DNA of 12,006 bases, from IMG/VR virus record IMGVR_UViG_2609460346_000011, positions 1 through 12,006 of that record; one strand, written 5' to 3'. The notes under the pieces are model-generated. The model was not told the DNA's origin and searched no databases. It saw only the letters and a list, made by a program, of their open reading frames with translations. Position 1 is the first letter of the stretch. Every line of letters begins with the position of its first letter. The translations under genes were made by a program, and so were the position numbers. Source of the stretch: a virus. Its lineage: Duplodnaviria > Heunggongvirae > Uroviricota > Caudoviricetes. This document shows positions 2,086 through 12,006 of this stretch, piece after piece.

Positions 2086-2701
2086 TTATTTTCATTTTAT
2101 AGTCAGCATGGCGCGATATGCGCCTAAACACTTCATACAATAAGAAACATCACTTAACCAAAGATGCATTCATGGTTTAAAAGATGCTCTACCCTTGTTA
2201 AGGAAACCGGAGTAAACAGATATAACAAAATAAAAGAAAGTGGACTATCAGAGGGATATTTTCATCTGTACGTCACACGTAAGAAATATATTTCAAGGAG
2301 CTAAGTTTAAAATCAACATTTATTTACAGAGTATAAAATTGAGTTATTCCGGTTACATTAACCGGATTGGGTGAACTGTTATGATAAATACAAGTAATGG
2401 CGACGTGGGTATATTCTCCACGAGGCATAAACAAACAAACGCTTTAAACATCATAACCGGATGTCCGGGAATACAGCATTATCCTGCTGACTGGAGCGGG
2501 CACATTGCTACATGTGAGGGAAGGAGGCCGGGTACTGGCAGCAGAGTCAAAAAAAGAAGCTCGCTAAAGCTAGCGAGCCAACCAGTCAGTAGTACGCGAT
2601 GGATCTGACATTAAGAATAATAGGCAGAAATAATTATGGCTTTTTTACTCTTAAAAATCAATCACTCAGCGCAAGTGAGCAAAAATAATTTGCAATATTG
2701 C

Positions 2702-2731
2702 TTGACTCGCTTTTTTGTCATGGCGTATCGT
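2702..2731 (+). promoter_or_regulatory. Putative sigma70-like promoter (TTGACT, ~18 bp spacer, TATCGT) reading into the repeat region
   Basis: TTGACT at 2702-2707 and a weak -10 candidate TATCGT at 2726-2731, with AT-rich DNA upstream. Pattern match only. Confidence 0.25.
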
Positions 2732-2756
2732 TTGCCCGCACCTCATAAAGCGGGTG

Positions 2757-2941
2757 CCGGGTTTAGCAGCCTGAACAATCAAGCGGGTAGCCGCTATATT
2801 TCCGTAATGCGGTTTTTTTGTGCCCGTAATTCCACCCTACCCCGTATTATGGCGGGGCGGAATGGGGGGGCCTTTGCGCTCGCTGGTTCCTTGATTGCCA
2901 GTCTGCTAACCCTGTTACGTCCCGCCACCATGTTTAGCAGC
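2757..2941 (+). promoter_or_regulatory. Non-coding region with direct 10-mer repeats (GTTTAGCAGC at 2761-2770 and 2932-2941) and an internal partly complementary segment (2897-2914); candidate RNA-RNA regulatory module
   Basis: The exact 10-mer occurs twice 171 bp apart. The reverse complement of 2897-2914 (CAGGGTTAGCAGACTGGC) aligns with the first repeat context (CCGGGTTTAGCAGCCTG) at about 14 of 16 positions with one bulge. The 173-aa ORF called across this region translates to low-complexity sequence that does not look protein-like. Confidence 0.35.
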
Positions 2942-2983
2942 GTGCTGGCGAGACTCCGTAAACTTAATCAAGGAGCCGCCAAA

Positions 2984-3157
2984 ATGGCTATATCAACACG
3001 CCCTGATTTTATCTGGCGCTTTATGCAGTGCCACGGTAAAAATATTCGCCTTCATACCGTTACCGCTGCCAGTGAGCGCGAAGCGCGCGCCATGCTTCCG
3101 GCATCCCGTCTGGTCTTTGTTGCCCGTATCCGTGTCCGGGAGGCGTGCCATGTTTAA
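2984..3157 (+). CDS. Hypothetical small protein, 57 aa
   Basis: Internal ATG of the 2636..3157 ORF, with SD AGGAG at 2971-2975 eight nt upstream. Its stop overlaps the next gene's start. No family recognised. Confidence 0.45.
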   Translation: MAISTRPDFIWRFMQCHGKNIRLHTVTAASEREARAMLPASRLVFVARIRVREACHV

Positions 3158-3332
3158 GCTCCTTATCACCCTGATTAACTACCAGAACGGCGACGTTCGC
3201 CAGATGATTCATTCCTGGGAATATCCGACTTATGACGATGCATGGCGTGATGCCTGTCGTATGGCATATTCCCGCAATGACAAACAGGGGCGATTAACCC
3301 ACAAATGCGCAGTAAAAATCATGGAGGGGTAA
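3150..3332 (+). CDS. Hypothetical small protein, 60 aa
   Basis: ATG at 3150 preceded by GGGAGG (3135-3140) and overlapping the stop of the upstream ORF (translational coupling). The longer 3072 start lacks an RBS and overlaps the upstream gene. No family recognised. Confidence 0.4.
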   Translation: MFKLLITLINYQNGDVRQMIHSWEYPTYDDAWRDACRMAYSRNDKQGRLTHKCAVKIMEG

Positions 3333-3334
3333 CG

Positions 3335-3523
3335 ATGTACGAGATTCATATTAAATTGCGTAATGTGGTAACAGGAGAGGAAGAAAACTTCTACACGATA
3401 CGTAAATATAAATCAAAAGGAAAAGCGGCAAGGGACGCTATCAGGTATACGGAAGAAATTGCGCCGAAATATCAATTGCCAGAAGAAGAATTCACAGCAT
3501 CAGTGGTAAAGGTGAAGAAATGA
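3335..3523 (+). CDS. Hypothetical small protein, 62 aa (Lys/Glu-rich)
   Basis: ATG at 3335 with SD GGAGGGG five nt upstream; stop TGA overlaps the next start (ATGA at 3520-3523). No family recognised. Confidence 0.45.
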   Translation: MYEIHIKLRNVVTGEEENFYTIRKYKSKGKAARDAIRYTEEIAPKYQLPEEEFTASVVKVKK

Positions 3524-3738
3524 AAAGCCGTTCAATATCCCGTAAAAATAATGGCAGTGGTGAAAAACGTTTCTTTGTGTTGGGTTATGCCGTTAATAAA
3601 CGTGGGTTAACCAAACATGCACATGCAACGGTATACGGAACAGGACCGGGCGAAGCCATACGCCGCGCAGCCGAAGGGCTGGAAGAGCTGGGAATGACAC
3701 ATTTCAGGGCATTGAAGGTTACGCAGCTTTCCGCCTGA
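3520..3738 (+). CDS. Hypothetical small protein, 72 aa
   Basis: Start overlaps the upstream stop (ATGA) and a purine-rich stretch lies upstream. No family recognised. By position it could correspond to the small ORFs preceding the primase gene in P4-like elements. Confidence 0.45.
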   Translation: MKSRSISRKNNGSGEKRFFVLGYAVNKRGLTKHAHATVYGTGPGEAIRRAAEGLEELGMTHFRALKVTQLSA

Positions 3739-3805
3739 TTCCTTAATTACCAACTGATAACTGAATTAAATTTATATTTCGATCTTAACGGGTCGGGGAG
3801 TTTTT

Positions 3806-4105
3806 ATGTCTAAACGTCAGAATAGCGAAATTTTTTTAGATAGAGAATATGCTGGCTTTTTTACAGAAAGTGCAAAGGAAGATCTCACAGATGTGATTAA
3901 TCTCGTCAGTTTAATATCTGTGGTCTTTGGCGATAAAAATGGTAGAGCATCAGCAGAAATTATAAATGAAGAAATTGTATCTCTGTCTAACATTATTTAT
4001 AGGGAATTACAATCAATAAAATCTGGTATGCATTCATCCGGCGGAATTTTTTCATGGCATAGCGCCGAAACCGCCGGGATTGCCAAAGCAATAAGCAACG
4101 AGTAA
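3806..4105 (+). CDS. Hypothetical protein, 99 aa, encoded in a markedly AT-rich segment
   Basis: SD GGGGAG six nt upstream of the ATG. Codon usage and GC content are clearly lower than in the flanking genes. A perfect hairpin follows immediately downstream. Confidence 0.5.
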   Translation: MSKRQNSEIFLDREYAGFFTESAKEDLTDVINLVSLISVVFGDKNGRASAEIINEEIVSLSNIIYRELQSIKSGMHSSGGIFSWHSAETAGIAKAISNE

Positions 4106-4115
4106 TTAATAAAAA

Positions 4116-4140
4116 CCCCACTGCAAAAGGTGCAGTGGGG
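4116..4140 (+). terminator. Perfect 10-bp stem hairpin (CCCCACTGCA / AAAGG / TGCAGTGGGG), intrinsic terminator or RBS-sequestering structure
   Basis: Perfect inverted repeat seen directly, preceded by an A-tract and followed by a U-rich stretch. The right arm overlaps the purine-rich SD (GGTGGAG, 4138-4144) of the primase gene. Confidence 0.5.
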
Positions 4141-4153
4141 TGGAGTTTTATAT

Positions 4154-6823
4154 ATGAAATCTGACATCAGAAAAGAGATTATTAACCGTCTTATCCGTGA
4201 TTACAACTTCAAAGAAGAAAATAACTACCTCCGATATGGTGTTTGTCCACAATGTGGAAAGAAAGAGCTGTTTACCAGCCTTGAGAAGCCGTACATCGTA
4301 CACTGCGGGCGTGAAAATAAATGCGGTACAGACCTGCTAACCAAAGAACTTTACCCGGATGTGTTTTCATCATGGTCAGATCGCTATATCAGCACGAAAG
4401 ACGAGCCATATGCAGCGGCGGCAGCTTATCTTCAGGAGGCGCGCAATATTGCTGTGGAGCCACTGAAAGGGGTATTCACTCAGGAGCGATACCAGGACAA
4501 GGAAAGCGGCGAACAGGCCGCTACCGTGCGTTTTACACTGGCTGACGGCGTGTGGTGGGAGCGCATCATAGACCGACCGGAACGCTTCGAACGGAAGGCG
4601 AATTTTTCCGGCAGCTACAAGGGGCTGTGGTGGGCTTATCCGGGAACAGATTTAAGCAGGGCCAAGGAAATCTGGATTTGTGAGGGTGTCTTTGATGCAA
4701 TCAGCCTTAACCAGAATGGCATTGCGGCCGTTTCTGTCATGTCTGCCGTGAATTATCCTGATGAGGCGCTGGAAGAACTGGCAAAGCAGTGCGGAGATAA
4801 TCCCCGTCCGGTTATTGTGTGGGCGCTGGATAACGGGCGTGCAGGTGAGCGTTACGCGAAAAAACATGCAGAACGCAGCGCCGAAGACGGCTGGAGAACG
4901 GCGGCGGCGTTACCGGGTAAAAACAGCAATAAACGCGACTGGAATGATTTACACACCGCCGGAAAGCTGCGTAGCCATGATGTAAAAAGATACCGTTATT
5001 ACGGTGATTTATTACTGGCGAAATCCCCAAGAGATAAGGCGCTGATAATATTTTCCTTTTGTGAGCGGAAGGAATTTCATTTTACCTTTGATAACCGTGT
5101 TTTCTGGTTCAAACTGGACATTGAGCGCTATATGAAGGCTGTTGAGCGTGCCAAGAATGAGCGAAATGTTGATGAGGATGAAGCGCGCAAAATTGCACTT
5201 AAGGAATCCGGTACTGTAAAAGAAATCGCAAACTGTAACCCAGCGCCGCTTTATTACATTCGAAATAATGATACGGATGAAGCCTGGTATTACTTCCGTG
5301 TTACGTTCCCGGATGGTGCTACGGTGAAAAACACCTTTACATCAGGACAATTAACATCCGCATCTGAATTTAAAAAACGCCTGTTGCATGTGGCAAAAGG
5401 CGGTATTTATACCGGAACGACTGCGCACCTTGATGCATTAATAAAAAATGACCTTCCCGCAATAAAAAATGTTATCGGTCAGGATTTTATCGGATACAAC
5501 AAAGAGATTGGCGCGTGGCTGTTTAATGATGTCGCGGTTTGTAATGGTAAAACCTACGAAATCAATGAAGAGGATTATTTTGAAATTGATGGCATAAACG
5601 CAAAACCATTGAATAAAAAACCAATATTGCAGATTAACTATAAAAAACCGGATAAATTTACAATATCCTGGGTGGAAGATCTCTGGCTGGCGTTTGGTGA
5701 AAAGGGAATTATTACCCTGGCCTTCTGGCTGGGTTCGTTGTTCAGCGAACAAATCAGGCAGAAAAACACGTCTTACCCTTTTCTTGAGATTACCGGAGAG
5801 CCTGGAACGGGTAAAACAACGCTGATTGATTTTTGTTGGCGTTTGTGTGGCCGTGACAACTATGAAGGTGTTGATCCAACCAAAGGATCGGAATCAGGCT
5901 GGAAGCGAACTTTTGGACAGGTCGCCGGATTACCTGTTGTTCTGATTGAAGCAGACCGGGGAGACAATGCGCAAAAAAGAGGCGCGTTTGACTTCGATAA
6001 CCTGAAAAGCCTCTATAACGGTGGTGGTATTGGGGTACGTGGCGTTAAAACCAATGATAACGCCACATATGACCCCGTTTTTAAGGGGGCTGTCGTGATT
6101 GCGCAAAATGCCACGGTAAACGCCTCGTCGGCAATTATTGAGCGCCTGGTACGTGTATACACCGATAAAAAACGCCACTCACCAGATAGCCGACTGGCAG
6201 CAAAACGGCTGGAGCTTTACCCCGTTGAGCAGGTATCAGGTTTTATCCATCGGGCAGTAAGTCAGGAACGGACGATTATGGAGACGTTTATGGCACTCTC
6301 GGATTCTGAGACAACCCGCCTTTATAGTTGCGAAAATATTCGTCATCAGCGTATTGCCAAAAATCACGCGCAACTTATCGCGCTGGTCAGGGCGCTGAAA
6401 TGCGTTATTGATATCCCGGATGAATGGCTTGATGCCACATGTCTGGAACTGGAGCGAATGGCAGAGGAACAGGCTAAAGCGGTAATGGATGACTTGCCGG
6501 AAGTGATGGCGTTCTGGGAGACGTTCGACTATCTGGACGGCATCACAGCATACGGCGTAAATCATTTTGGCAAGGGACGGCAGAATGAGTTTGCCATCAG
6601 TATCCCGCAACTTGAGCAGGTTGCCGCCGTTCACCACGTGAAGATCCAAACCAATCCCGAAATGATAAAGCTTCTCAAGGCTGGCCGTTCTCGATCGCTG
6701 ATTGGATACAAGCCCGTCCGTAGCGAGGTATCCAGACAGGCGAACGCCGGGAGGGGAATAGCCGAGGCCAGAGAGAAGGAGGTATTGAAATGCTGGATAT
6801 TTAGTAACAAGGAGGGGGCTTAA
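4154..6823 (+). CDS. DNA primase/helicase-type replication initiator (zinc ribbon + TOPRIM/EGxxD primase + P-loop NTPase), P4 alpha-like in architecture, 889 aa
   Basis: Start taken at the ATG at 4154 (MKSDIRK) rather than the upstream in-frame ATG inside the hairpin. N-terminal Cys cluster CPQCGKK...HCGRENKCG; EGVFDA primase-type motif followed by an acidic DNGRAGE segment; Walker A GEPGTGKTT near residue 550. Confidence 0.85.
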   Translation: MKSDIRKEIINRLIRDYNFKEENNYLRYGVCPQCGKKELFTSLEKPYIVHCGRENKCGTDLLTKELYPDVFSSWSDRYISTKDEPYAAAAAYLQEARNIAVEPLKGVFTQERYQDKESGEQAATVRFTLADGVWWERIIDRPERFERKANFSGSYKGLWWAYPGTDLSRAKEIWICEGVFDAISLNQNGIAAVSVMSAVNYPDEALEELAKQCGDNPRPVIVWALDNGRAGERYAKKHAERSAEDGWRTAAALPGKNSNKRDWNDLHTAGKLRSHDVKRYRYYGDLLLAKSPRDKALIIFSFCERKEFHFTFDNRVFWFKLDIERYMKAVERAKNERNVDEDEARKIALKESGTVKEIANCNPAPLYYIRNNDTDEAWYYFRVTFPDGATVKNTFTSGQLTSASEFKKRLLHVAKGGIYTGTTAHLDALIKNDLPAIKNVIGQDFIGYNKEIGAWLFNDVAVCNGKTYEINEEDYFEIDGINAKPLNKKPILQINYKKPDKFTISWVEDLWLAFGEKGIITLAFWLGSLFSEQIRQKNTSYPFLEITGEPGTGKTTLIDFCWRLCGRDNYEGVDPTKGSESGWKRTFGQVAGLPVVLIEADRGDNAQKRGAFDFDNLKSLYNGGGIGVRGVKTNDNATYDPVFKGAVVIAQNATVNASSAIIERLVRVYTDKKRHSPDSRLAAKRLELYPVEQVSGFIHRAVSQERTIMETFMALSDSETTRLYSCENIRHQRIAKNHAQLIALVRALKCVIDIPDEWLDATCLELERMAEEQAKAVMDDLPEVMAFWETFDYLDGITAYGVNHFGKGRQNEFAISIPQLEQVAAVHHVKIQTNPEMIKLLKAGRSRSLIGYKPVRSEVSRQANAGRGIAEAREKEVLKCWIFSNKEGA

Positions 6824-6825
6824 GT

Positions 6826-7827
6826 ATGTCGATCAGAAAGATGGATGATGGGCGATGGCTGCTCGATATCAGGCCCCAAGGGGCGTACGGCAAACGGATA
6901 CGTAAAATTTTTGTCAGGAAAGGGAGTGCGGAGGTCTTCAAAGAACATATTTTACAGAATTTCCATAACAACCCATGGCTGGCTAAACCTGCTGATCGAC
7001 GGAGATTATCAGAGCTGCTTGATATATGGTGGATGCTTGATGGCCGTAACCAGGCTTACGGTGATACCTACAGGATTCGGATGGAGAAAGTGATTCGTGA
7101 AATGGGAGATCCGCGTGCCAGCCAGATGACGCAAAAATTTATGCTTGAGTATCGGTCAGAGAAATTACAGGCCGGCTTAATGCCATCCAGCATTAATCGT
7201 GACTTGTGCGTTCTGTCTACCATGTTCACGGTGCTGATTGAAGCTGAGGTCTTTCACAACCCGAACCCTGTACGCGGTATACGCAAGCTAAAAATTCAGA
7301 ATACAGAGATGGCCTTTCTTTCTGATGATGAGATTGAGCGGCTTCTTGAGCGACTGGAGGGGGATGCGCGTCGTGTTGCCATTCTGTGTCTTTCTACTGG
7401 TGCCCGATGGAGTGAAGCATCGGAACTACGTGGAGAGCACATCATTGGCAACCGGGTGACGTTCTTTAACACCAAAAACGGAAAATCCCGTTCGGTTCCT
7501 GTGGCTGATTCGGTCGTGCCGCTGATTAAGACCCACCGGACAGGGGTGTTGTATCAGGTTGATTATCTGAAGTTCCGGGAGATCCTTCAGGAGGTGAAGC
7601 CGGATTTACCGAAGGGGCAGGCTACGCATGTCATGCGTCATACATTTGCCACACACTTTATGATGAATGGCGGAAATATTGTTACGTTACAACGAATCCT
7701 GGGGCATGCCACGATTCAACAGACAATGACGTACGCGCATTTTTCTCCCGACTATCTGGCGGATGCCATGAGGTTTAACCCGATAGCTAACATGGCATTC
7801 ACTGAACAAGAAGAGCCAGCAGAGTAA
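6826..7827 (+). CDS. int: Tyrosine integrase, P2 Int-like family, 333 aa
   Basis: Near end-to-end resemblance to the P2 integrase as I recall it (MSIRKMDDGRWLLDIRPQG..GKRIRK...AILCLSTGARWSEA...GQATHVMRHTFATHFMMNGGNIVTLQRILGH...TYAHF). Catalytic Arg, HxxR box and Tyr are present. The ATG lies 2 nt after the primase stop, with the SD (AAGGAGGGGG) inside the primase 3' end. Confidence 0.85.
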   Translation: MSIRKMDDGRWLLDIRPQGAYGKRIRKIFVRKGSAEVFKEHILQNFHNNPWLAKPADRRRLSELLDIWWMLDGRNQAYGDTYRIRMEKVIREMGDPRASQMTQKFMLEYRSEKLQAGLMPSSINRDLCVLSTMFTVLIEAEVFHNPNPVRGIRKLKIQNTEMAFLSDDEIERLLERLEGDARRVAILCLSTGARWSEASELRGEHIIGNRVTFFNTKNGKSRSVPVADSVVPLIKTHRTGVLYQVDYLKFREILQEVKPDLPKGQATHVMRHTFATHFMMNGGNIVTLQRILGHATIQQTMTYAHFSPDYLADAMRFNPIANMAFTEQEEPAE

Positions 7828-8073: not shown

Positions 8074-8397
8074 AAAATCCGGGGGGGGGTGCGGAAACGG
8101 GTTACAAAGGTTACAAACAGAAAAATATATTATATATCAATACATTATAATACATTTAAAAGGTTACAAACGGGTTACAACAGGGTTACATGTAACCTTT
8201 ATGTAGTGGTTACTGTTGGTTACAGGTTAAATTTATAATTAATTGATAATTAATCTGTTTTTGAGAGCTGCAACCTCGTGTAACCTTCTGTAACCTCAAA
8301 AAGGTTACAAGAAATATGTTTTAAAATCATATGACTATAGTGTGTTTTAGGGGGTTGTAACCTTTGTAACCCGTTTCCGCACCCCCTACCGGATTTT
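8074..8397. repeat. Iteron cluster: about 12 copies of GGTTACA/TGTAACC in both orientations around AT-rich DNA, bounded by 43-bp inverted repeats (8074-8116 and 8355-8397, 41/43 identity); putative replication origin
   Basis: Counted directly: forward copies at 8100, 8109, 8162, 8173, 8184, 8219, 8303; reverse copies at 8191, 8279, 8289, 8356, 8365. Includes the palindrome GGTTACATGTAACC at 8184-8197. The interior is AT-rich and there is no convincing coding potential. Confidence 0.6.
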
Positions 8398-8614
8398 GAG
8401 GCAGAGCCCCAAAACAACTGGCCTGACCTCTAACAAAAATGCAACATTAATCATTGATTTTTTGGGGGCTGTCAGTCACGGGGAGTTGCCCTGTTGTTTG
8501 GCAGAAAAATGAAGTATGTACATGCGCGGCGGGGATGGTAAAAAACGTAATACACGCGGCGCAGTTGCCATAAAAAATCTCTCAAAAGCACTCTTTTTGA
8601 CGCTATTGTTCATC

Positions 8615-9004: not shown

Positions 9005-9187
9005 ATGTCTTTCCCTTGCCCGGCCTGTGGCGCTTCAGCCCGCACCCGTGGTCGTTCGTTGGAAGAACACGAACAAAACATCTACAGAACGTATTACCAG
9101 TGCAATAATATTGAGTGTGGGGCTTGTTTTTGTACGCTTGAGTCGTTTGTACGCATTACTAAGCGCAGGAAGTCGAAAACTTCATAG
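9005..9187 (+). CDS. ogr: Ogr/Delta-family zinc-finger late-gene transcriptional activator, 60 aa
   Basis: SD AAGAGGAG upstream. CPAC...(x)...YQCNNIECGACFCTLESF matches the Ogr/Delta C-x2-C / C-x4-C zinc-finger signature and the FxTxES motif of P2 Ogr as recalled. Confidence 0.85.
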   Translation: MSFPCPACGASARTRGRSLEEHEQNIYRTYYQCNNIECGACFCTLESFVRITKRRKSKTS

Positions 9188-9636: not shown

Positions 9637-10347
9637 ATGGATATAACTCAGGCAAGCGCCGAACATCAGGTATGTAAAGCACAGTTTGATACAGCCATGG
9701 CAAAACTCAGTGAACAGGAATCATTAATCACCAATCTGGAAGCAACTATCGAACAGACGAAAGGGGAGCTGGAATCTCTCGATCGTGACTGGCAGAACTC
9801 AATCCTGTCTGCGCTGGGCGTAAAAACGGAAGCCTCCGCGAAATTATCCATTCAGGCGGGTGTGGCGCGAGAAAATCTTGAGCGTCTGCGGGTGCTGCAT
9901 GATGAGGCGCGCATCAGGCTACTGGAGTGTCGTTATAACGCGGCAGAGGCTGGTTGTGCTTACGAAAGCATTGATAATAAGTTGCGGGCAGAGATATTTG
10001 CAAAAGCACTTCCCGAACTGATTAACGAGCTGACCCCTGCTCTGTTATTGATTCGTGGTTTATGTGAGCTGCTTGGCCAGCCGCTGTATAACGCAGAAAA
10101 GAAAATATGCGAAACACTGAAAGCGACAGATACTGCTGAAAGTGTCGGGATGATTCGCGGCCGGATTAACGATACCGAAAGCGACACCTCCAGCCCGCTG
10201 CGTTATTGCCCGGAGAAACTCCCGGATTCGGTAAGCCGCGCAATCAGGAACGCCCCTTCACCTGTACAATGGAGCGCGGCGCGACAGAATCCAGAAAAAA
10301 TGCGCGACCTTGCGGAGGGCAGAGAACTCTGCCGGGGGTGGCAGTAA
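9637..10347 (+). CDS. Coiled-coil alpha-helical protein, 236 aa; putative capsid scaffold or size-determination-like (Sid/Psu/GpO-like) protein
   Basis: SD AGGAG seven nt upstream. The sequence is rich in Ala/Leu/Glu heptad-like segments. It sits immediately upstream of, and is translationally coupled to, the capsid gene (TAATG overlap at 10345-10349). The coding call is reasonably safe; the function is inferred from position and composition only. Confidence 0.5.
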   Translation: MDITQASAEHQVCKAQFDTAMAKLSEQESLITNLEATIEQTKGELESLDRDWQNSILSALGVKTEASAKLSIQAGVARENLERLRVLHDEARIRLLECRYNAAEAGCAYESIDNKLRAEIFAKALPELINELTPALLLIRGLCELLGQPLYNAEKKICETLKATDTAESVGMIRGRINDTESDTSSPLRYCPEKLPDSVSRAIRNAPSPVQWSAARQNPEKMRDLAEGRELCRGWQ

Positions 10348-11618
10348 TGGGCGGTCTGAATACTCCACATTTGCACGGCGCTGATATAGTGAGCCGACTC
10401 AGGGGATTAATGTCCCGGAATCGCCTGAAAGCAAACACAGCAAGCATAAGCGATGAGACGCGTCGCGCGCTGGACAATGAATATCAAAAACTGGAGCGTG
10501 AGCTTGAGCTTCACACCCTGCATACTGCAAGCGGTGGGGGTAATAACGACGGCATTGAGCGTTATAATTGCACTGCTGATTCTGTTGTATCACAACGAAA
10601 TCAACAGGCTCAGATGGTTTTCAATTGCGCTATCGAGTCGATAACCGGAAAGCATCCGAAGGATTTGCACTTTTCTGGTGACACTGCGCGCTATTCGTCA
10701 GAAGTTGAACCCGTTCCCCGCCAGAGTGCAACGCTTGCCAGTGGATGGCAGGCAAATTTCCTTGCTGAAATAACTCCCGTGCCTGTTACGGATATATCAG
10801 GTCGGGTTGTGCTGGTAGACGCTTCGGGGCCGTTGGCACGTACATCGCCACCTCACGAGCGCCGTTCGCCACTACAGGCGCATTCACTGGTTTCAAGGGG
10901 CTACCGCTGCGAGCAGGTTAATTTTGATTTTGCGCTGAACTACGACAATGTTGATGCTCACACATCCGCAAACGGTCTTGAAGGAAGCGCACGGGCTGCT
11001 TTTGAACGCCGGAAATGGCTGGATTTGATTCAGATTGGTTTTAACGGTACGCACTATGCCGATACATCAGATCCCGGAACATATCCGGGGCGTGATGATT
11101 GCGGCGTGGGCTGGTTGCAGAAGTTTCGAAATGAAGCGGCGGGAAGGGTTATCAGCGGCCTTTCTGTTTCATCACCGAAAAGTAATACACGCGGTACACA
11201 CCATACGATAGATGCGCTCGTTCTGGATGCCTGGCAATCCATGATTGATGAACAGTGGCAGGAAGGCATTGTGGCCGTATGCAGTCACAATACGCTGGTC
11301 CGTAAGCAATGGCCTTTGATAAACCGTCTTGATCCATCGCAGATGAATCAGGAAATTTTGCTTAACGAGGAAATCATTAAAAATCCCGTTCTGGGGAATC
11401 TCCCGGCTGTGACCGTTCCATTTTTCCCGGACAATGCTGTATTGATCACACCTCTTGCCAATCTGTGTCTGTACTGGCAGCGTGGTTCCGTTCGTGGCCT
11501 GGTAAAAAACGAGCCTCAGTATAATCGCCTCGCGTTCTATGAGTCCTGTAACCTTGACTGGGTGGTGGGGCAATATGAGGCAGGGTGCTTACTGGATGGG
11601 ATTGACTGGAAAGAATAG
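10347..11618 (+). CDS. Major capsid protein, P2 GpN-like family, 424 aa from the ATG at 10347 (alternative internal start at 10614)
   Basis: Extended motif agreement with P2 GpN as I recall it: CEQVNFDF, GFNGTHYADTSD, GVGWLQKFRNEAAGRV, IDALVLDA, GNLPAVTVPFFPDNAVLITPLANL, YESCNLDWVVGQYEAGCLLDGI. SD-like GGGGGTGG lies upstream of the 10347 ATG. About 89 residues precede the region that aligns with the GpN N-terminus. Confidence 0.8.
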   Translation: MGGLNTPHLHGADIVSRLRGLMSRNRLKANTASISDETRRALDNEYQKLERELELHTLHTASGGGNNDGIERYNCTADSVVSQRNQQAQMVFNCAIESITGKHPKDLHFSGDTARYSSEVEPVPRQSATLASGWQANFLAEITPVPVTDISGRVVLVDASGPLARTSPPHERRSPLQAHSLVSRGYRCEQVNFDFALNYDNVDAHTSANGLEGSARAAFERRKWLDLIQIGFNGTHYADTSDPGTYPGRDDCGVGWLQKFRNEAAGRVISGLSVSSPKSNTRGTHHTIDALVLDAWQSMIDEQWQEGIVAVCSHNTLVRKQWPLINRLDPSQMNQEILLNEEIIKNPVLGNLPAVTVPFFPDNAVLITPLANLCLYWQRGSVRGLVKNEPQYNRLAFYESCNLDWVVGQYEAGCLLDGIDWKE

Positions 11619-11661: not shown

Positions 11662-12006
11662 TTACTTAAGCAGATGCTCTCCACCAATCAGGGTTATGAC
11701 TCTTTCAAGCACATCATTAAATACCCCATCTTCTGCCTCTGTGATTAAGCGCGCTTTCCGCTGACGCCAGTCAAGGGTTTGAATGAGTGTGGTTGCTACC
11801 ACGCTGGGGGCGTCCAGATTTGTTACCGGAACTTCTGTGGGAGCATTTCGTATGCTCGTACTTATGGAGCAGCATATGACAAGCCCGGTGAGTCGGTTAT
11901 ATTGCTCATGGGATAGTATGAGTGCCGGGCGATACTTTCCGATCTCTTTTCCTTTCTGCGGCTCAAAATCCAGCCAGCAAATATCACCACGCTTAGGTAC
12001 AAACAT
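11662..12006 (-). CDS. Type II toxin, MazF/PemK/Kid-family endoribonuclease, 114 aa
   Basis: RGDICWLDFEPQKGKEIGKYRPALILS...LTGLVICCSISTS...VATTLIQTLDWRQRKARL follows the MazF/PemK pattern (RGDI..V.FDP..G.E..G.RPALVLS). The start codon sits on the last three bases of the window, so the upstream partner gene and promoter are not visible. Confidence 0.8.
   Translation of the reverse strand: MFVPKRGDICWLDFEPQKGKEIGKYRPALILSHEQYNRLTGLVICCSISTSIRNAPTEVPVTNLDAPSVVATTLIQTLDWRQRKARLITEAEDGVFNDVLERVITLIGGEHLLK

What the first reader, a model, noticed from the sequence alone, without database searches (positions are those of the whole stretch)
2984..3738. Operon of four tiny translationally coupled ORFs (57, 60, 62, 72 aa) upstream of the primase
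Consecutive small genes with overlapping stop and start codons, each with its own SD, occupy the position where P4-like elements encode helper-manipulating or derepression proteins. None could be assigned to a family from sequence. Small proteins at this position are plausible anti-repressor, anti-defence or helper-interference factors.
Basis: inference. Interest (0 to 1): 0.45.

Follow-up and report, generated by a model that had tools for sequence, protein, structure and literature searches.

The report
RNA-gated early operon of a P4-like satellite
The four tiny genes are real and conserved, but they are the front end of a known kind of antisense-RNA-controlled "immunity" operon of a P4-like phage satellite: the first gene is an Icd-type cell-division inhibitor and the other three are small proteins whose function is still unknown.

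Summary
Four same-strand ORFs of 57, 60, 62 and 72 aa lie at 2984-3738, each behind a Shine-Dalgarno site. Their junctions are an 8-nt overlap, a 2-nt gap and a 4-nt overlap. All four evolve as coding sequence (dN/dS 0.12-0.54) and RefSeq annotates them.

Two things were missed. ORF1 is an Icd-like protein (NCBIfam NF033153; 51% identical to P1 Icd, which targets FtsZ). Directly upstream lie an isrK/seqA-like RNA (2738-2819) and a C4/CI-type antisense RNA (2845-2932). The C4 loop pairs with 2966-2975, which contains ORF1's SD. Loop and targets co-vary across 18 modules, P4's included.

The operon is therefore a P4 left-operon / P1 immI-type unit. The antisense RNA most likely blocks ORF1 translation, and coupling passes that block downstream towards the primase.

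ORF2 and ORF3 are tandem paralogs (hhalign E 2.6e-9). ORF4 belongs to a small, basic family with a GYAVNxxGxT motif. ORF3 and ORF4 are predicted with confidence as β-hairpin/helix/β domains with only generic structural matches.

The trio is not ε-like. In related satellites it occurs in the same operon as a true ε gene, which sits where ORF5 sits here. Function remains unknown.

The parts
2702..2731 (+). Candidate sigma-70 promoter of the operon (TTGACT, 18-nt spacer, TATCGT); inferred analogue of P4 P_LE
   Evidence: Consensus scan, 9 of 12 matches. The -10 hexamer ends 6 nt before position 1 of the isrK model match at 2738. Inference only.
2738..2819 (+). isrK/seqA-like leader RNA ending in a hairpin plus U7 terminator. 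It carries the upstream target sites b1 (TTTAGCAG, 2762-2769) and a1 (CAATCAAG, 2776-2783).
   Evidence: Rfam RF01394 at 52.1 bits (gathering score 50); the overlapping c4-a1b1 RF03163 match at 2725-2777 scores 29.5 bits, below its gathering score. Sites located. They co-vary with the C4 loops. PMC4825925 and PMC10111431 equate isrK with P4 seqA.
2845..2932 (+). C4/CI-type antisense (immunity) RNA. The loop a' is UUCCUUGAUUG at 2887-2897 and the single-stranded b' is CUGCUAA at 2903-2909.
   Evidence: Rfam RF01695 at 67.3 bits (gathering score 45), full-length model match. The P4 CI RNA region hits the same model at 74.9 bits.
2933..2975 (+). Downstream target region (seqC / a2b2 equivalent): b2 TTTAGCAG at 2933-2940 and a2 AATCAAGGAG at 2966-2975. 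The a2 site contains the ORF1 Shine-Dalgarno AAGGAG (2970-2975).
   Evidence: RNAduplex gives -20.4 kcal/mol for a' against 2964-2978, the best site in the window. a'/a1/a2 and b'/b1/b2 change together in 11 loci. The same geometry is seen in 18 modules.
2984..3157 (+). ORF1, 57 aa, Icd-like (host cell-division inhibitor family). It is the first, gate-keeping cistron.
   Evidence: NF033153 at 56 bits against a cut-off of 25. 51% identical to P1 Icd over residues 5-49. dN/dS 0.12. The PGAP 173-aa version starting at 2636 includes the RNA genes, and that extension has dN/dS 1.05.
3150..3332 (+). ORF2, 60 aa, uncharacterized; paralog of ORF3
   Evidence: SD GGGAGG at 3138-3143 and an 8-nt overlap with ORF1. 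dN/dS 0.54, or 0.35-0.45 in deep pairs. hhalign against the ORF3 family gives probability 96% and E 2.6e-9. No family hit.
3335..3523 (+). ORF3, 62 aa, uncharacterized; paralog of ORF2; predicted β-hairpin/helix/β domain
3520..3738 (+). ORF4, 72 aa, basic (pI 10.7). It has a disordered N-terminal tail followed by a β-hairpin/helix/β domain, and carries the family motif GYAVNKRGLT.
3806..4105 (+). ORF5, 99 aa, hypervariable. It occupies the slot that holds the ε (Derepression) gene in related satellites.
   Evidence: 31-99% aa identity among otherwise similar elements. An ε-family protein (PF25738, 70 bits) sits at this place in L036-L039. No detectable homology to ε.
4130..6823 (+). Toprim-domain primase/replicase, the distal gene of the same-strand gene string
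   Evidence: Pfam Toprim_2 and Toprim_3. Weak similarity to P4 α, E 6e-5. PGAP starts it at 4154.

Best explanation
The four ORFs are the proximal cistrons of the early, immunity-controlled operon of a P4-like satellite prophage of E. coli, integrated at a tRNA-Arg gene next to yfdC. The proposed mechanism has five steps.

1. Transcription probably starts near 2738. It first produces an isrK/seqA-like leader that carries sites a1 and b1 and has its own terminator. (The RNA matches are shown; the start site is inferred.)

2. Read-through transcripts contain a C4/CI-type RNA, which by analogy with P1 C4 and P4 CI is processed out of the transcript. (The RNA match is shown; the processing is inferred.)

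3. In the immune state this RNA pairs through its loop a' and single strand b' with a2 and b2 just downstream. The a2 site includes the Shine-Dalgarno sequence of ORF1. (Complementarity and covariation are shown. The molecular outcome is inferred from P1 and P4: ORF1 is not translated, so the untranslated mRNA terminates prematurely and nothing downstream is made.)

4. When the RNA is outcompeted or diluted, for example after infection or transfer, ORF1 is translated. The overlapping or abutting stop/start junctions relay ribosomes through ORF2, ORF3 and ORF4, and transcription continues to ORF5 and the primase. (Inferred.)

5. The protein products are as follows. ORF1 is an Icd homolog and probably blocks FtsZ-dependent division transiently. 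ORF2 and ORF3 are tandem paralogs that evolve faster and recombine between alleles. ORF4 is a conserved, basic member of a small Enterobacterales family that occurs in satellite early operons, in nearly every case examined downstream of a C4-Icd module. ORF3 and ORF4 are predicted, and ORF2 is inferred, to be single small β-hairpin/helix/β domains. I take them to be stoichiometric binding proteins made only on derepression, acting on host or helper targets rather than as enzymes. Their targets are unknown.
For: Coding status:
- dN/dS is below 1 only in the called frames.
- The frames and coupled junctions are conserved in other genera.
- PGAP calls the same genes.

Icd identity:
- NF033153 hit above cut-off and 51% identity to P1 Icd.
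- P1 Icd binds FtsZ, with a core at residues 12-51 (PMC11897509).

RNA gate:
- C4 and isrK both score above their Rfam gathering scores.
- P4 has the same order: a1b1/isrK, C4, Icd-like ORF, then ε overlapping by 8 nt.
- The a' duplex with the region containing the SD is -20.4 kcal/mol, the best site in the window.
- Five combinations of co-varying a'/a1/a2 and b'/b1/b2 occur among 11 near-identical loci.
- In 17 of 18 C4 modules the variable loop is complementary to a variable 7-mer plus the SD of the next ORF, whose ATG lies at +52 to +58.
- The literature describes CI pairing with seqA and seqC, and isrK as the seqA homolog (PMC4825925, PMC10111431), and C4 control of icd-ant in P1 (PMC8198154).

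Proteins:
- ORF2 and ORF3 are paralogs.
- The AF2 models are confident.
- The ORF4 family sits in the same context with at least three different replicase types.
- Alleles of ORF2 and ORF3 are mosaic between conserved ORF1 and ORF4.
Against: - No expression, processing or termination data exist for this element.
- The promoter and transcription start are only consensus-level inferences.
- The isrK score is only just above threshold (52.1 against 50), and the c4-a1b1 match is below its gathering score.
- Whether the RNA acts mainly on translation, as in P1, or on termination, as in P4, cannot be told from sequence.
- Nothing identifies the targets of ORF2-4. The fold matches are generic.
- ORF2's dN/dS of 0.54 among close relatives is only weakly below the off-frame values.
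- Some strains carry frameshift fusions (L003, L009), so these genes can be lost.
- One ORF4-family locus, in Tatumella, showed no C4 hit.
Confidence: 0.75

Rival explanations
1. One or more of ORF2-4 are ε-type anti-repressors that derepress a P2-like helper prophage. Several copies might target different helper repressors.
For: - P4 ε starts at exactly the ORF2 position, 8 nt inside the Icd-like stop.
- ORF2 and ORF3 are duplicated, faster evolving and mosaic between alleles, as expected for proteins that track variable partners.
- The element has Ogr/Delta and a P2-family capsid gene, so a P2-like helper is likely.
Against: - No similarity to PF25738 or to P4 ε.
- In L036-L039 the trio and a true ε gene are in the same operon, so the trio is not a replacement for ε.
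- ORF4 is strongly conserved (dN/dS mostly 0.07-0.22) across satellites in several genera, which fits poorly with helper-specific tracking.
- ORF2 is absent from the Yersinia version.
Confidence: 0.12
2. ORF4, a basic protein with an eL20-like fold, is an RNA-binding regulator of the immunity circuit itself. It might sequester or destabilise the C4/CI RNA, or act as an antiterminator, giving positive feedback once the gate opens. ORF2 and ORF3 could be partners.
For: - The family pI is 9.3-10.7 and the N-terminal tail is disordered and rich in K and R.
- Family members lie 250-660 nt downstream of a C4 RNA in 8 of 9 genome loci, whatever the replicase type.
Against: - The linkage to C4 may simply reflect that the satellites carrying this family use C4 immunity.
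- P4 works without such a protein.
- No RNA-binding motif was detected.
Confidence: 0.1
3. ORF2-4 are anti-defence or host-takeover inhibitors, such as anti-CRISPR or anti-restriction proteins, made early to protect the incoming satellite or helper.
For: - They are small single-domain early proteins.
- ORF2 and ORF3 diversify.
Against: - The matches are no better than those to PurS, eL20, ClpS or topoisomerase domains.
- There is no sequence-level relation to any known family.
- BFVD gives no match with E below 1e-3.
Confidence: 0.1
4. ORF2-4 are accessory factors of satellite replication that work with the downstream primase, for example in copy-number control or origin loading.
For: - They lie directly upstream of, and are probably co-transcribed with, the primase.
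- P4 has cnr (orf106), a copy-number regulator, in the same interval (PMC8628076).
Against: - The ORF4 family occurs with at least three unrelated replicase architectures: a Toprim_2 897-aa protein, Zn_Ribbon_Prim+Toprim_3+DUF927, and a DUF927 704-aa protein.
- There is no similarity to cnr/DUF5375.
Confidence: 0.08
5. ORF2-4 have no protein function. They are only translated spacers that keep ribosomes on the mRNA so that Rho does not terminate before the primase.
For: - The genes are tightly coupled.
- ORF2 is missing in Yersinia, and frameshift fusions are tolerated in some strains.
- In Gifsy-1, orf45 acts mainly as a coupling ORF with a poorly conserved peptide (PMC4825925).
Against: - There is purifying selection on the amino-acid sequence, down to dN/dS 0.07-0.2 for ORF4.
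- The conserved motif GYAVNxxGxT holds at 35-50% identity across genera.
- The AF2 folds are confident even from shallow alignments.
Confidence: 0.04

Closest known systems
Left (early) operon of satellite phage P4: P_LE, seqA, CI RNA, seqC, Icd-like ORF (the C-terminal part of the old 'cI 137 aa' ORF), ε, orf151, cnr, α
   Same: - The order of Rfam hits is the same (c4-a1b1/isrK, then C4), followed by an Icd-like ORF whose stop overlaps the next gene's start by 8 nt, then small genes, then the primase.
- The C4 loop is complementary to a 7-mer plus the SD of the Icd-like ORF in both.
- AlpA, the integrase and Ogr/Delta are also shared.
   Different: - The payload differs. P4 has ε (PF25738), orf151 and cnr (DUF5375). 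This element has ORF2, ORF3, ORF4 and ORF5, none related to those.
- The primase is only weakly similar to α, E 6e-5.
- No Psu or Sid was found in the window. Instead there is a P2-family capsid homolog and a second integrase.
immI operon of phages P1 and P7: c4 antisense RNA, icd, ant1/ant2
   Same: - A C4 RNA made from the same transcript it controls, with targets a1/b1 upstream and a2/b2 at the icd RBS.
- icd is the first cistron and is coupled to the downstream effector.
- ORF1 is 51% identical to P1 Icd (PMC8198154). That C4 represses ant by blocking icd translation, followed by Rho-dependent termination, is from my own knowledge of Citron & Schuster 1990 and Biere et al. 1992.
   Different: - The downstream genes here are three 60-72 aa proteins, then ORF5 and a primase, rather than the large Ant1/2 antirepressor.
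- The host element is a chromosomal satellite, not a plasmid prophage.
Gifsy-1 isrK-orf45-anrP-isrJ locus of Salmonella
   Same: - An isrK-type leader RNA with its own terminator, read-through into a region that yields a processed C4-like RNA (STnc1160), and a first small ORF coupled (AUGA) to the next gene (PMC4825925).
- The predicted pairing in cis of the isrK middle part with the C4 loop region is also seen here.
   Different: [quoted passage not shown]
- Here the first ORF is a well-conserved Icd homolog (dN/dS 0.12), and nothing shows an activating role for the leader RNA.
P4 ε / Pfam PF25738 'Derepression' family
   Same: Small proteins (85-95 aa) encoded in the C4-controlled operon between Icd and the primase.
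   Different: - ORF2-5 do not match the family.
- In relatives ε lies after the ORF2-4 trio, in the ORF5 slot.

Membership tests
Icd-like host cell-division inhibitor (NCBIfam NF033153; prototype P1 Icd) | Profile match above the curated cut-off | tested here: met
   ORF1 scores 56 bits against a cut-off of 25, E 2.9e-15, with residues 9-51 covering the whole 48-position model.
Icd-like host cell-division inhibitor (NCBIfam NF033153; prototype P1 Icd) | Direct similarity to the experimentally studied P1 Icd | tested here: met
   tblastn gives 51% identity over ORF1 residues 5-49 to the annotated icd of P1, E 2e-6.
Icd-like host cell-division inhibitor (NCBIfam NF033153; prototype P1 Icd) | First cistron directly downstream of a C4 RNA, with its RBS inside the a2 target | tested here: met
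   The ATG lies 52 nt after the C4 3' end, and the SD (2970-2975) lies inside the a2 duplex.
Icd-like host cell-division inhibitor (NCBIfam NF033153; prototype P1 Icd) | Binds FtsZ, blocks the Z-ring and causes filamentation | not testable with these tools
   Known for P1 Icd only (PMC11897509).
C4 antisense RNA (Rfam RF01695; P1 C4, P4 CI) | Covariance-model score above the gathering score over the full model | tested here: met
   67.3 bits against 45, model positions 1-87 of 87.
C4 antisense RNA (Rfam RF01695; P1 C4, P4 CI) | Two exposed segments complementary to one upstream and one downstream target pair | tested here: met
   a' pairs with a1 (2776-2783) and a2 (2966-2975); b' pairs with b1 (2762-2769) and b2 (2933-2940). 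The changes are coordinated across three sites in 11 loci and across 18 modules.
C4 antisense RNA (Rfam RF01695; P1 C4, P4 CI) | Processed from the operon's own transcript (RNase P) and confers immunity | not testable with these tools
   Requires RNA analysis and superinfection tests.
isrK / P4 seqA leader RNA (Rfam RF01394) | Covariance-model score above the gathering score | tested here: met
   52.1 bits against 50, so marginal. The same hit is found in P4 at 60.8 bits and in relatives.
P4 ε helper-derepression protein (Pfam PF25738) | Profile match for any of ORF2, ORF3, ORF4 or ORF5 | tested here: not met
   No Pfam hit at E up to 1. P4 ε scores 168 bits and the L037 and L038 proteins score 70 and 47.5 bits with the same library. 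BLASTP against ε gives nothing. ORF5 against ε by hhalign gives E 0.51.
P4 ε helper-derepression protein (Pfam PF25738) | Binds and inactivates the helper repressor (P2 C) | not testable with these tools
   Needs lysogen induction or binding assays.
P4-like satellite (core set used by Moura de Sousa & Rocha, PMC8628076: int, psu, δ, sid, alpA, ε/Ash, α) | Integrase, AlpA and an Ogr/Delta-type activator present | tested here: met
   Phage_integrase with its arm domain at 1-1263; Phage_AlpA at 1864-2085; Ogr_Delta at 9005-9187.
P4-like satellite (core set used by Moura de Sousa & Rocha, PMC8628076: int, psu, δ, sid, alpA, ε/Ash, α) | Psu and Sid capsid-size genes and a P4 α-type primase | tested here: inconclusive
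   No Psu or Sid Pfam hit among the ORFs scanned. The ORF at 9637-10347 has no family. A P2-family major capsid homolog is present instead. The primase is a Toprim type with only weak similarity to α.
Translationally coupled operon | Stop/start overlap or a gap of at most a few nt, with an SD inside the upstream gene, conserved in relatives | tested here: met
   Junctions of 8-nt overlap, 2-nt gap and 4-nt overlap. In L027 the ORF2-ORF3 and ORF3-ORF4 junctions are 8-nt overlaps, and in L035-L039 all three junctions are. Functional coupling itself was not tested.

The most novel reading that the evidence does not exclude
The ORF2-ORF3-ORF4 trio is an undescribed, conserved effector module of a sub-lineage of P4-like satellites across Enterobacterales. 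It is distinct from ε and released only when the C4/CI RNA gate opens.

In the most novel version, the basic, eL20-like ORF4 family is a protein partner of the C4 immunity RNA, acting as an anti-immunity or antitermination factor that makes derepression irreversible. It follows a C4-Icd module in nearly every locus examined. The fast-evolving paralogs ORF2 and ORF3 would be helper- or host-targeting binders. ORF4 may also be the unnamed '75 aa protein present in 61% of P4-like elements but absent from P4' noted in PMC8628076.
Probability: 0.12. Interest if true: 0.7.

Novelty: new variant of a known kind. Interest (0 to 1): 0.38.

Why it matters
[quoted passage not shown] Four points follow from this work.

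1. A large group of these elements carries a conserved trio of small proteins between Icd and the ε slot that P4 lacks. What satellites do on derepression is therefore only partly known.

2. The C4 loop and its targets form a readable code of immunity specificity: five combinations among eleven near-identical E. coli elements. This can be used to predict cross-immunity between co-resident satellites.

3. Current annotation hides the RNA genes. PGAP's 173-aa 'Icd-like' ORF and Pfam Phage_ASH both translate the C4 region, and Phage_ASH has been used as the marker for 'ε'.

4. ORF1 is a ready candidate for a second FtsZ-targeting Icd.

None of this overturns known biology. It is a well-defined set of small-protein candidates sitting in a known regulatory frame.

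Tried and rejected
- Family assignment of ORF2-5. Pfam, NCBIfam, PHROGs and PADLOC gave nothing significant. PDB sequence profiles gave nothing below E 0.28.

- Homolog searches. The word-indexed search found only E. coli relatives plus one Yersinia protein. The exhaustive HMMER search with the ORF4 profile found only 14 representatives. tblastn of ORF4 against phage genomes found no match. blastn of ORF2-4 against plasmids found no match.

- All four proteins as diverged copies of one Icd-like domain. I considered this because they share a β-hairpin/helix/β pattern, and rejected it at the sequence level. Only ORF2 and ORF3 are related. Comparisons of ORF2/3 with ORF4, ORF2/3 with Icd, and ORF4 with Icd are all non-significant.

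- ORF5 as a diverged ε. MAFFT lined up a short motif (Y-x-F/Y-x-x-E-D…L), but hhalign gives E 0.51. Rejected.

- The N-terminal 116 residues of PGAP's 173-aa Icd as coding sequence. Rejected: dN/dS is 1.05 in that frame and the stretch is covered by the isrK and C4 hits.

- Positive selection on ORF3. A few close pairs give dN/dS of 1.7-2.1, but from only 8 non-synonymous against 1 synonymous change, clustered at residues 19-23. Deep pairs give 0.29-0.42. This is not robust.

- Riedel et al. 1993 (PMC204598) could not be read.
Full report
**1. What the window is**

The window is a P4-like satellite prophage of E. coli.
- It is 99.7% identical over 2600-4130 to strain TOE17, where it sits next to a tRNA-Arg gene and yfdC.
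- The gene order is as follows:
  - integrase, 1-1263
  - AlpA, 1864-2085
  - an RNA region
  - the four small ORFs
  - ORF5, 3806-4105
  - a Toprim primase, 4130-6823
  - a second tyrosine recombinase, 6826-7827
  - an Ogr/Delta zinc finger, 9005-9187
  - a P2-family major capsid homolog, 10206-11618
  - a PemK toxin gene on the other strand
- The 1.5-kb block around the finding occurs in 75 of 5426 complete E. coli genomes, always on the chromosome.

**2. Checking the observation**

| ORF | Coordinates | Length | Shine-Dalgarno site | Junction with the ORF before |
|---|---|---|---|---|
| ORF1 | 2984-3157 | 57 aa | AAGGAG, 2970-2975 | none |
| ORF2 | 3150-3332 | 60 aa | GGGAGG, 3138-3143 | 8-nt overlap (ATGTTTAA) |
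| ORF3 | 3335-3523 | 62 aa | GGAGGGG, 3323-3329 | 2-nt gap |
| ORF4 | 3520-3738 | 72 aa | AAGGTG, 3509-3514 | 4-nt overlap (ATGA) |

The phrase 'overlapping stop and start codons' is therefore true for two of the three junctions. PGAP annotates ORF2-4 at the same coordinates as hypothetical proteins.

- Among 11 E. coli loci, variable sites in ORF1 and ORF4 are concentrated at third codon positions (10 of 13, and 19 of 33).
- Pooled dN/dS in the called frame is 0.12 (ORF1), 0.54 (ORF2), 0.38 (ORF3) and 0.17 (ORF4). The off-frames give 0.77-2.8.
- More diverged pairs give 0.35-0.45 for ORF2 and 0.29-0.42 for ORF3. ORF4 gives 0.07-0.22 in most pairs, including 0.12 against a Yersinia copy, with 0.45-0.53 in two pairs.
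- Most indels are multiples of three. The frame-breaking ones inside ORF1-4 are two strain-specific lesions that fuse neighbouring ORFs: an 11-nt insertion in L003 and a 1-nt insertion in L009.
- Orthologs at 35-50% identity in Enterobacter, Erwinia, Apirhabdus, Symbiopectobacterium and an unidentified viral contig keep the frames. In L027 the ORF2-ORF3 and ORF3-ORF4 junctions, and in L035-L039 all three junctions, are 8-nt overlaps.

All four are real genes. The case is weakest for ORF2.

**3.

A scan of the window against Rfam gives three co-linear hits just upstream of ORF1.

| Rfam family | Coordinates | Score |
|---|---|---|
| c4-a1b1 | 2725-2777 | 29.5 bits, below the gathering score |
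| isrK | 2738-2819 | 52.1 bits against a gathering score of 50 |
| C4 antisense RNA | 2845-2932 | 67.3 bits against 45, full-length match |

Phage P4 gives the same three hits in the same order. They lie in front of an Icd-like reading frame, which is the C-terminal part of the old 'cI 137 aa' ORF. Its stop is overlapped by 8 nt by the start of ε. The literature equates the C4 model with P4 CI RNA and the isrK model with P4 seqA. It describes CI as causing premature termination by pairing with seqA and seqC (PMC4825925, PMC10111431).

In the window the C4 hairpin loop a' (UUCCUUGAUUG, 2887-2897) and the single-stranded b' (CUGCUAA, 2903-2909) have two sets of complementary targets.
- Upstream: b1 at 2762-2769 and a1 at 2776-2783.
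- Downstream: b2 at 2933-2940 and a2 at 2966-2975.
- The a2 site is AATCAAGGAG, so it contains ORF1's Shine-Dalgarno sequence.
- The a'-a2 duplex is -20.4 kcal/mol, the best site for a' anywhere in the window. The a'+b' segment scores best on exactly the two expected regions.

The strongest evidence is covariation.
- Among 11 loci that are 88-99.7% identical, the a' loop, a1 and a2 change together, giving three alleles.
- b', b1 and b2 also change together, giving two alleles.
- This makes five combinations, with every change compensated at all three sites.
- I then examined 18 C4 modules from diverse satellites, P4 included. The loop sequence differs widely between them, but the complementary target lies about 31-56 nt (14-47 in L017) after the C4 3' end.
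- In 17 of the 18 the target consists of a variable 7-mer plus the SD of the next ORF, whose ATG is at +52 to +58.
- In the unprocessed transcript, the predicted fold pairs the a1/b1 region with the C4 loops in cis, as described for IsrK 'structure A' (PMC4825925).

Further details:
- A consensus promoter (TTGACT, 18-nt spacer, TATCGT; 2702-2731) ends 6 nt before the first position of the isrK match. This is inference only.
- PGAP's 'Icd-like' CDS of 173 aa starts at 2636 and runs across both RNA genes. That N-terminal extension has dN/dS 1.05, so it is not coding.

**4. ORF1**

- ORF1 matches NCBIfam NF033153 (phage_ICD_like) at 56 bits against a cut-off of 25.
- It is 51% identical over residues 5-49 to the icd gene of phage P1.
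- P1 Icd (73 aa) blocks Z-ring formation by binding FtsZ, with a core at residues 12-51 (PMC11897509).
- In P1 it is the first gene of the C4-controlled immI operon, ahead of the antirepressor genes ant1/2 (PMC8198154).
- From my own knowledge of Citron & Schuster 1990 and Biere et al. 1992: C4 represses ant by blocking icd translation, which leads to Rho-dependent termination.
- ORF1 is thus a member of a known family. It is also the gate-keeping cistron of the operon.

**5. ORF2, ORF3 and ORF4**

No library places them in a family.

Their families are small.
- The word-indexed search of 5.8 billion proteins found only E. coli relatives, one Yersinia protein and two proteins from an unassigned 956-nt ENA metagenome contig.
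- An exhaustive HMMER search of 1.84 billion representatives with the ORF4 profile found 14.

ORF2 and ORF3 are tandem paralogs.
- The first profile comparison gave E 4e-4.
- The two copies in L027 give BLASTP E 2e-8.
- Enlarged family alignments give hhalign probability 96% and E 2.6e-9 over residues 1-38, in register.
- They evolve faster than their neighbours and are mosaic. In L014, for example, ORF1 is 100%, ORF2 73%, ORF3 58% and ORF4 97% identical to the window.
- The Yersinia element has only the ORF3-type copy.

ORF4 is conserved and basic. The window protein has pI 10.7, and the family spans 9.3-10.7. It carries an invariant motif, GYAVNKRGLT, which relaxes to GYAV[NT]xxG[LY]T in distant members.

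AlphaFold models are confident for the two proteins I could run.
- ORF4 has pLDDT 85.9: a disordered tail at residues 1-15, then β16-25, β31-40, α43-56 and β60-70.
- ORF3 has pLDDT 88.5: β2-10, β16-20, α28-46 and β51-59.
- Foldseek against viral models gives nothing with E below 1e-3.

The shared topology made me ask whether all four proteins derive from one Icd-like domain. Sequence profiles do not support this beyond ORF2 and ORF3.

**6.

- The ORF4 family is found in Enterobacterales satellites. Eight of nine genome loci have a C4 RNA 250-660 nt upstream.
- The same holds for viral contigs and for a distant member, P0043. There the order is int, AlpA, C4, Icd-like, ORF4-like with an 8-nt overlap, DUF4222, and a primase.
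- The family occurs with at least three replicase architectures. It therefore travels with the C4-Icd module rather than with a particular primase.
- In Enterobacter hormaechei, Ca. Erwinia dacicola, Symbiopectobacterium and a related contig, the order is Icd-like, ORF2-like, ORF3-like, ORF4-like and then an 85-93 aa protein. That protein is a clear member of Pfam PF25738 'Derepression', the P4 ε family, at 70 and 47.5 bits.
- In Apirhabdus the same slot holds an ORF5-like protein.
- The trio therefore co-exists with ε and is unlikely to be its substitute. The gene that alternates with ε is ORF5, which is also the most variable gene of the block, at 31-99% identity.
- ORF5 shows no detectable homology to ε.

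**7. Mechanism, and how sure each step is**

*Shown by sequence and comparative evidence:*
- The four genes are coding.
- ORF1 is an Icd homolog.
- A C4/CI-type RNA and its two target pairs are present and co-vary.
- The downstream target includes ORF1's SD.
- The cistrons are arranged for coupling.

*Inferred from P1 and P4:*
- The RNA is processed from the operon's own transcript.
- In the immune state it blocks ORF1 translation and causes premature termination, so that ORF2-4, ORF5 and the primase are silent.
- On derepression, ribosomes are relayed through the coupled cistrons.

*Inferred weakly:*
- ORF2-4 are small binding proteins that act on host or helper targets.

I put 0.75 on the overall picture. 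Each specific function proposed for ORF2-4 gets much less: ε-like antirepressor 0.12, RNA-circuit regulator 0.10, anti-defence 0.10, replication accessory 0.08, and mere translated spacers 0.04.

**8. Novelty and verdict**

- The regulatory chassis is known from the P4 left operon and P1 immI, and ORF1 belongs to a known family.
- The payload is the new element. It is a trio of small proteins, conserved across genera, sitting between Icd and the ε/ORF5 slot, which P4 lacks and nobody has characterised.
- It may correspond to the unnamed 75-aa family reported in 61% of P4-like elements (PMC8628076). I could not verify this.
- I class the finding as a new variant of a known kind, of moderate interest (0.38).

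Noticed in passing
window 2636-3157; L011 (P4) 8168-8584: PGAP annotates a 173-aa 'Icd-like' CDS that runs across the isrK and C4 RNA genes. Pfam PF10554 (Phage_ASH) matches residues 22-85 of P4's old 'cI 137 aa' ORF, which is the translation of the CI/C4 RNA region. PF10554 was used as the 'ε' marker in a survey of P4-like satellites (PMC8628076), whereas real ε is PF25738.
   Followed up: partly
L021, L022, L029 (two copies); L024 (two); L026 (three); L028 (two Icd genes): Some satellites carry two or three tandem C4 modules, most followed by an Icd-like ORF, and each module has its own loop/target specificity.
   Followed up: partly
window 3806-4105 (ORF5): This 99-aa gene is hypervariable, at 31-99% aa identity among otherwise similar elements. 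It occupies the slot that holds a true ε (PF25738) gene in Enterobacter, Erwinia and Symbiopectobacterium relatives. It is a better candidate than ORF2-4 for the module that interacts with the helper. It has no family hit and no detectable homology to ε.
   Followed up: partly
window 10206-11618 and 9637-10347; L002 1869-2921; L030 3058-4110: The satellite encodes its own P2-family major capsid protein homolog (PF05125, E 1e-71), preceded by an overlapping ORF with no family hit (236 aa in the window, 287-291 aa in relatives). In relatives this pair sits between alpA and the immunity region, not downstream of Ogr/Delta, so the module moves within the element. No Psu or Sid hit was seen.
   Followed up: no
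window 6826-7827: A second tyrosine recombinase (Int_N plus Phage_integrase) starts 2 nt after the primase stop, in addition to the arm-type integrase at 1-1263. The arrangement is conserved in Yersinia.
   Followed up: no
window 4115-4141: A perfect 11-bp inverted repeat with 7 G-C pairs (ACCCCACTGCA…TGCAGTGGGGT) lies between ORF5 and the primase start and is followed by GGAGTTTTAT. It could be a regulatory hairpin or an attenuator at the primase RBS.
   Followed up: no
L003 (ETEC1701) after window position 3097; L009 (CFSAN027346) after window position 3325: There are strain-specific frameshifts. An 11-nt insertion fuses ORF1 to ORF2, and a 1-nt insertion fuses ORF2 to ORF3; PGAP calls the latter as a 124-aa protein. 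The operon is decaying in some hosts.
   Followed up: partly
window 11662-12006 (- strand): A PemK/MazF-family toxin gene (PF02452, E 9e-24) runs to the end of the window. It may be a toxin-antitoxin or defence cargo of the satellite, or the flanking chromosome.
   Followed up: no
L033 563-631: An int-alpA RNA (Rfam RF02996, 46.5 bits) lies between the integrase and alpA of a distant relative. The window gave no such hit at E up to 1.
   Followed up: no
L039 (contig QAKE01000006.1): A 12.7-kb contig labelled 'MAG: Bacillota bacterium' carries the complete enterobacterial module: isrK, C4, Icd, the ORF2-3-4 trio and ε. This is probably a binning error or contamination.
   Followed up: no
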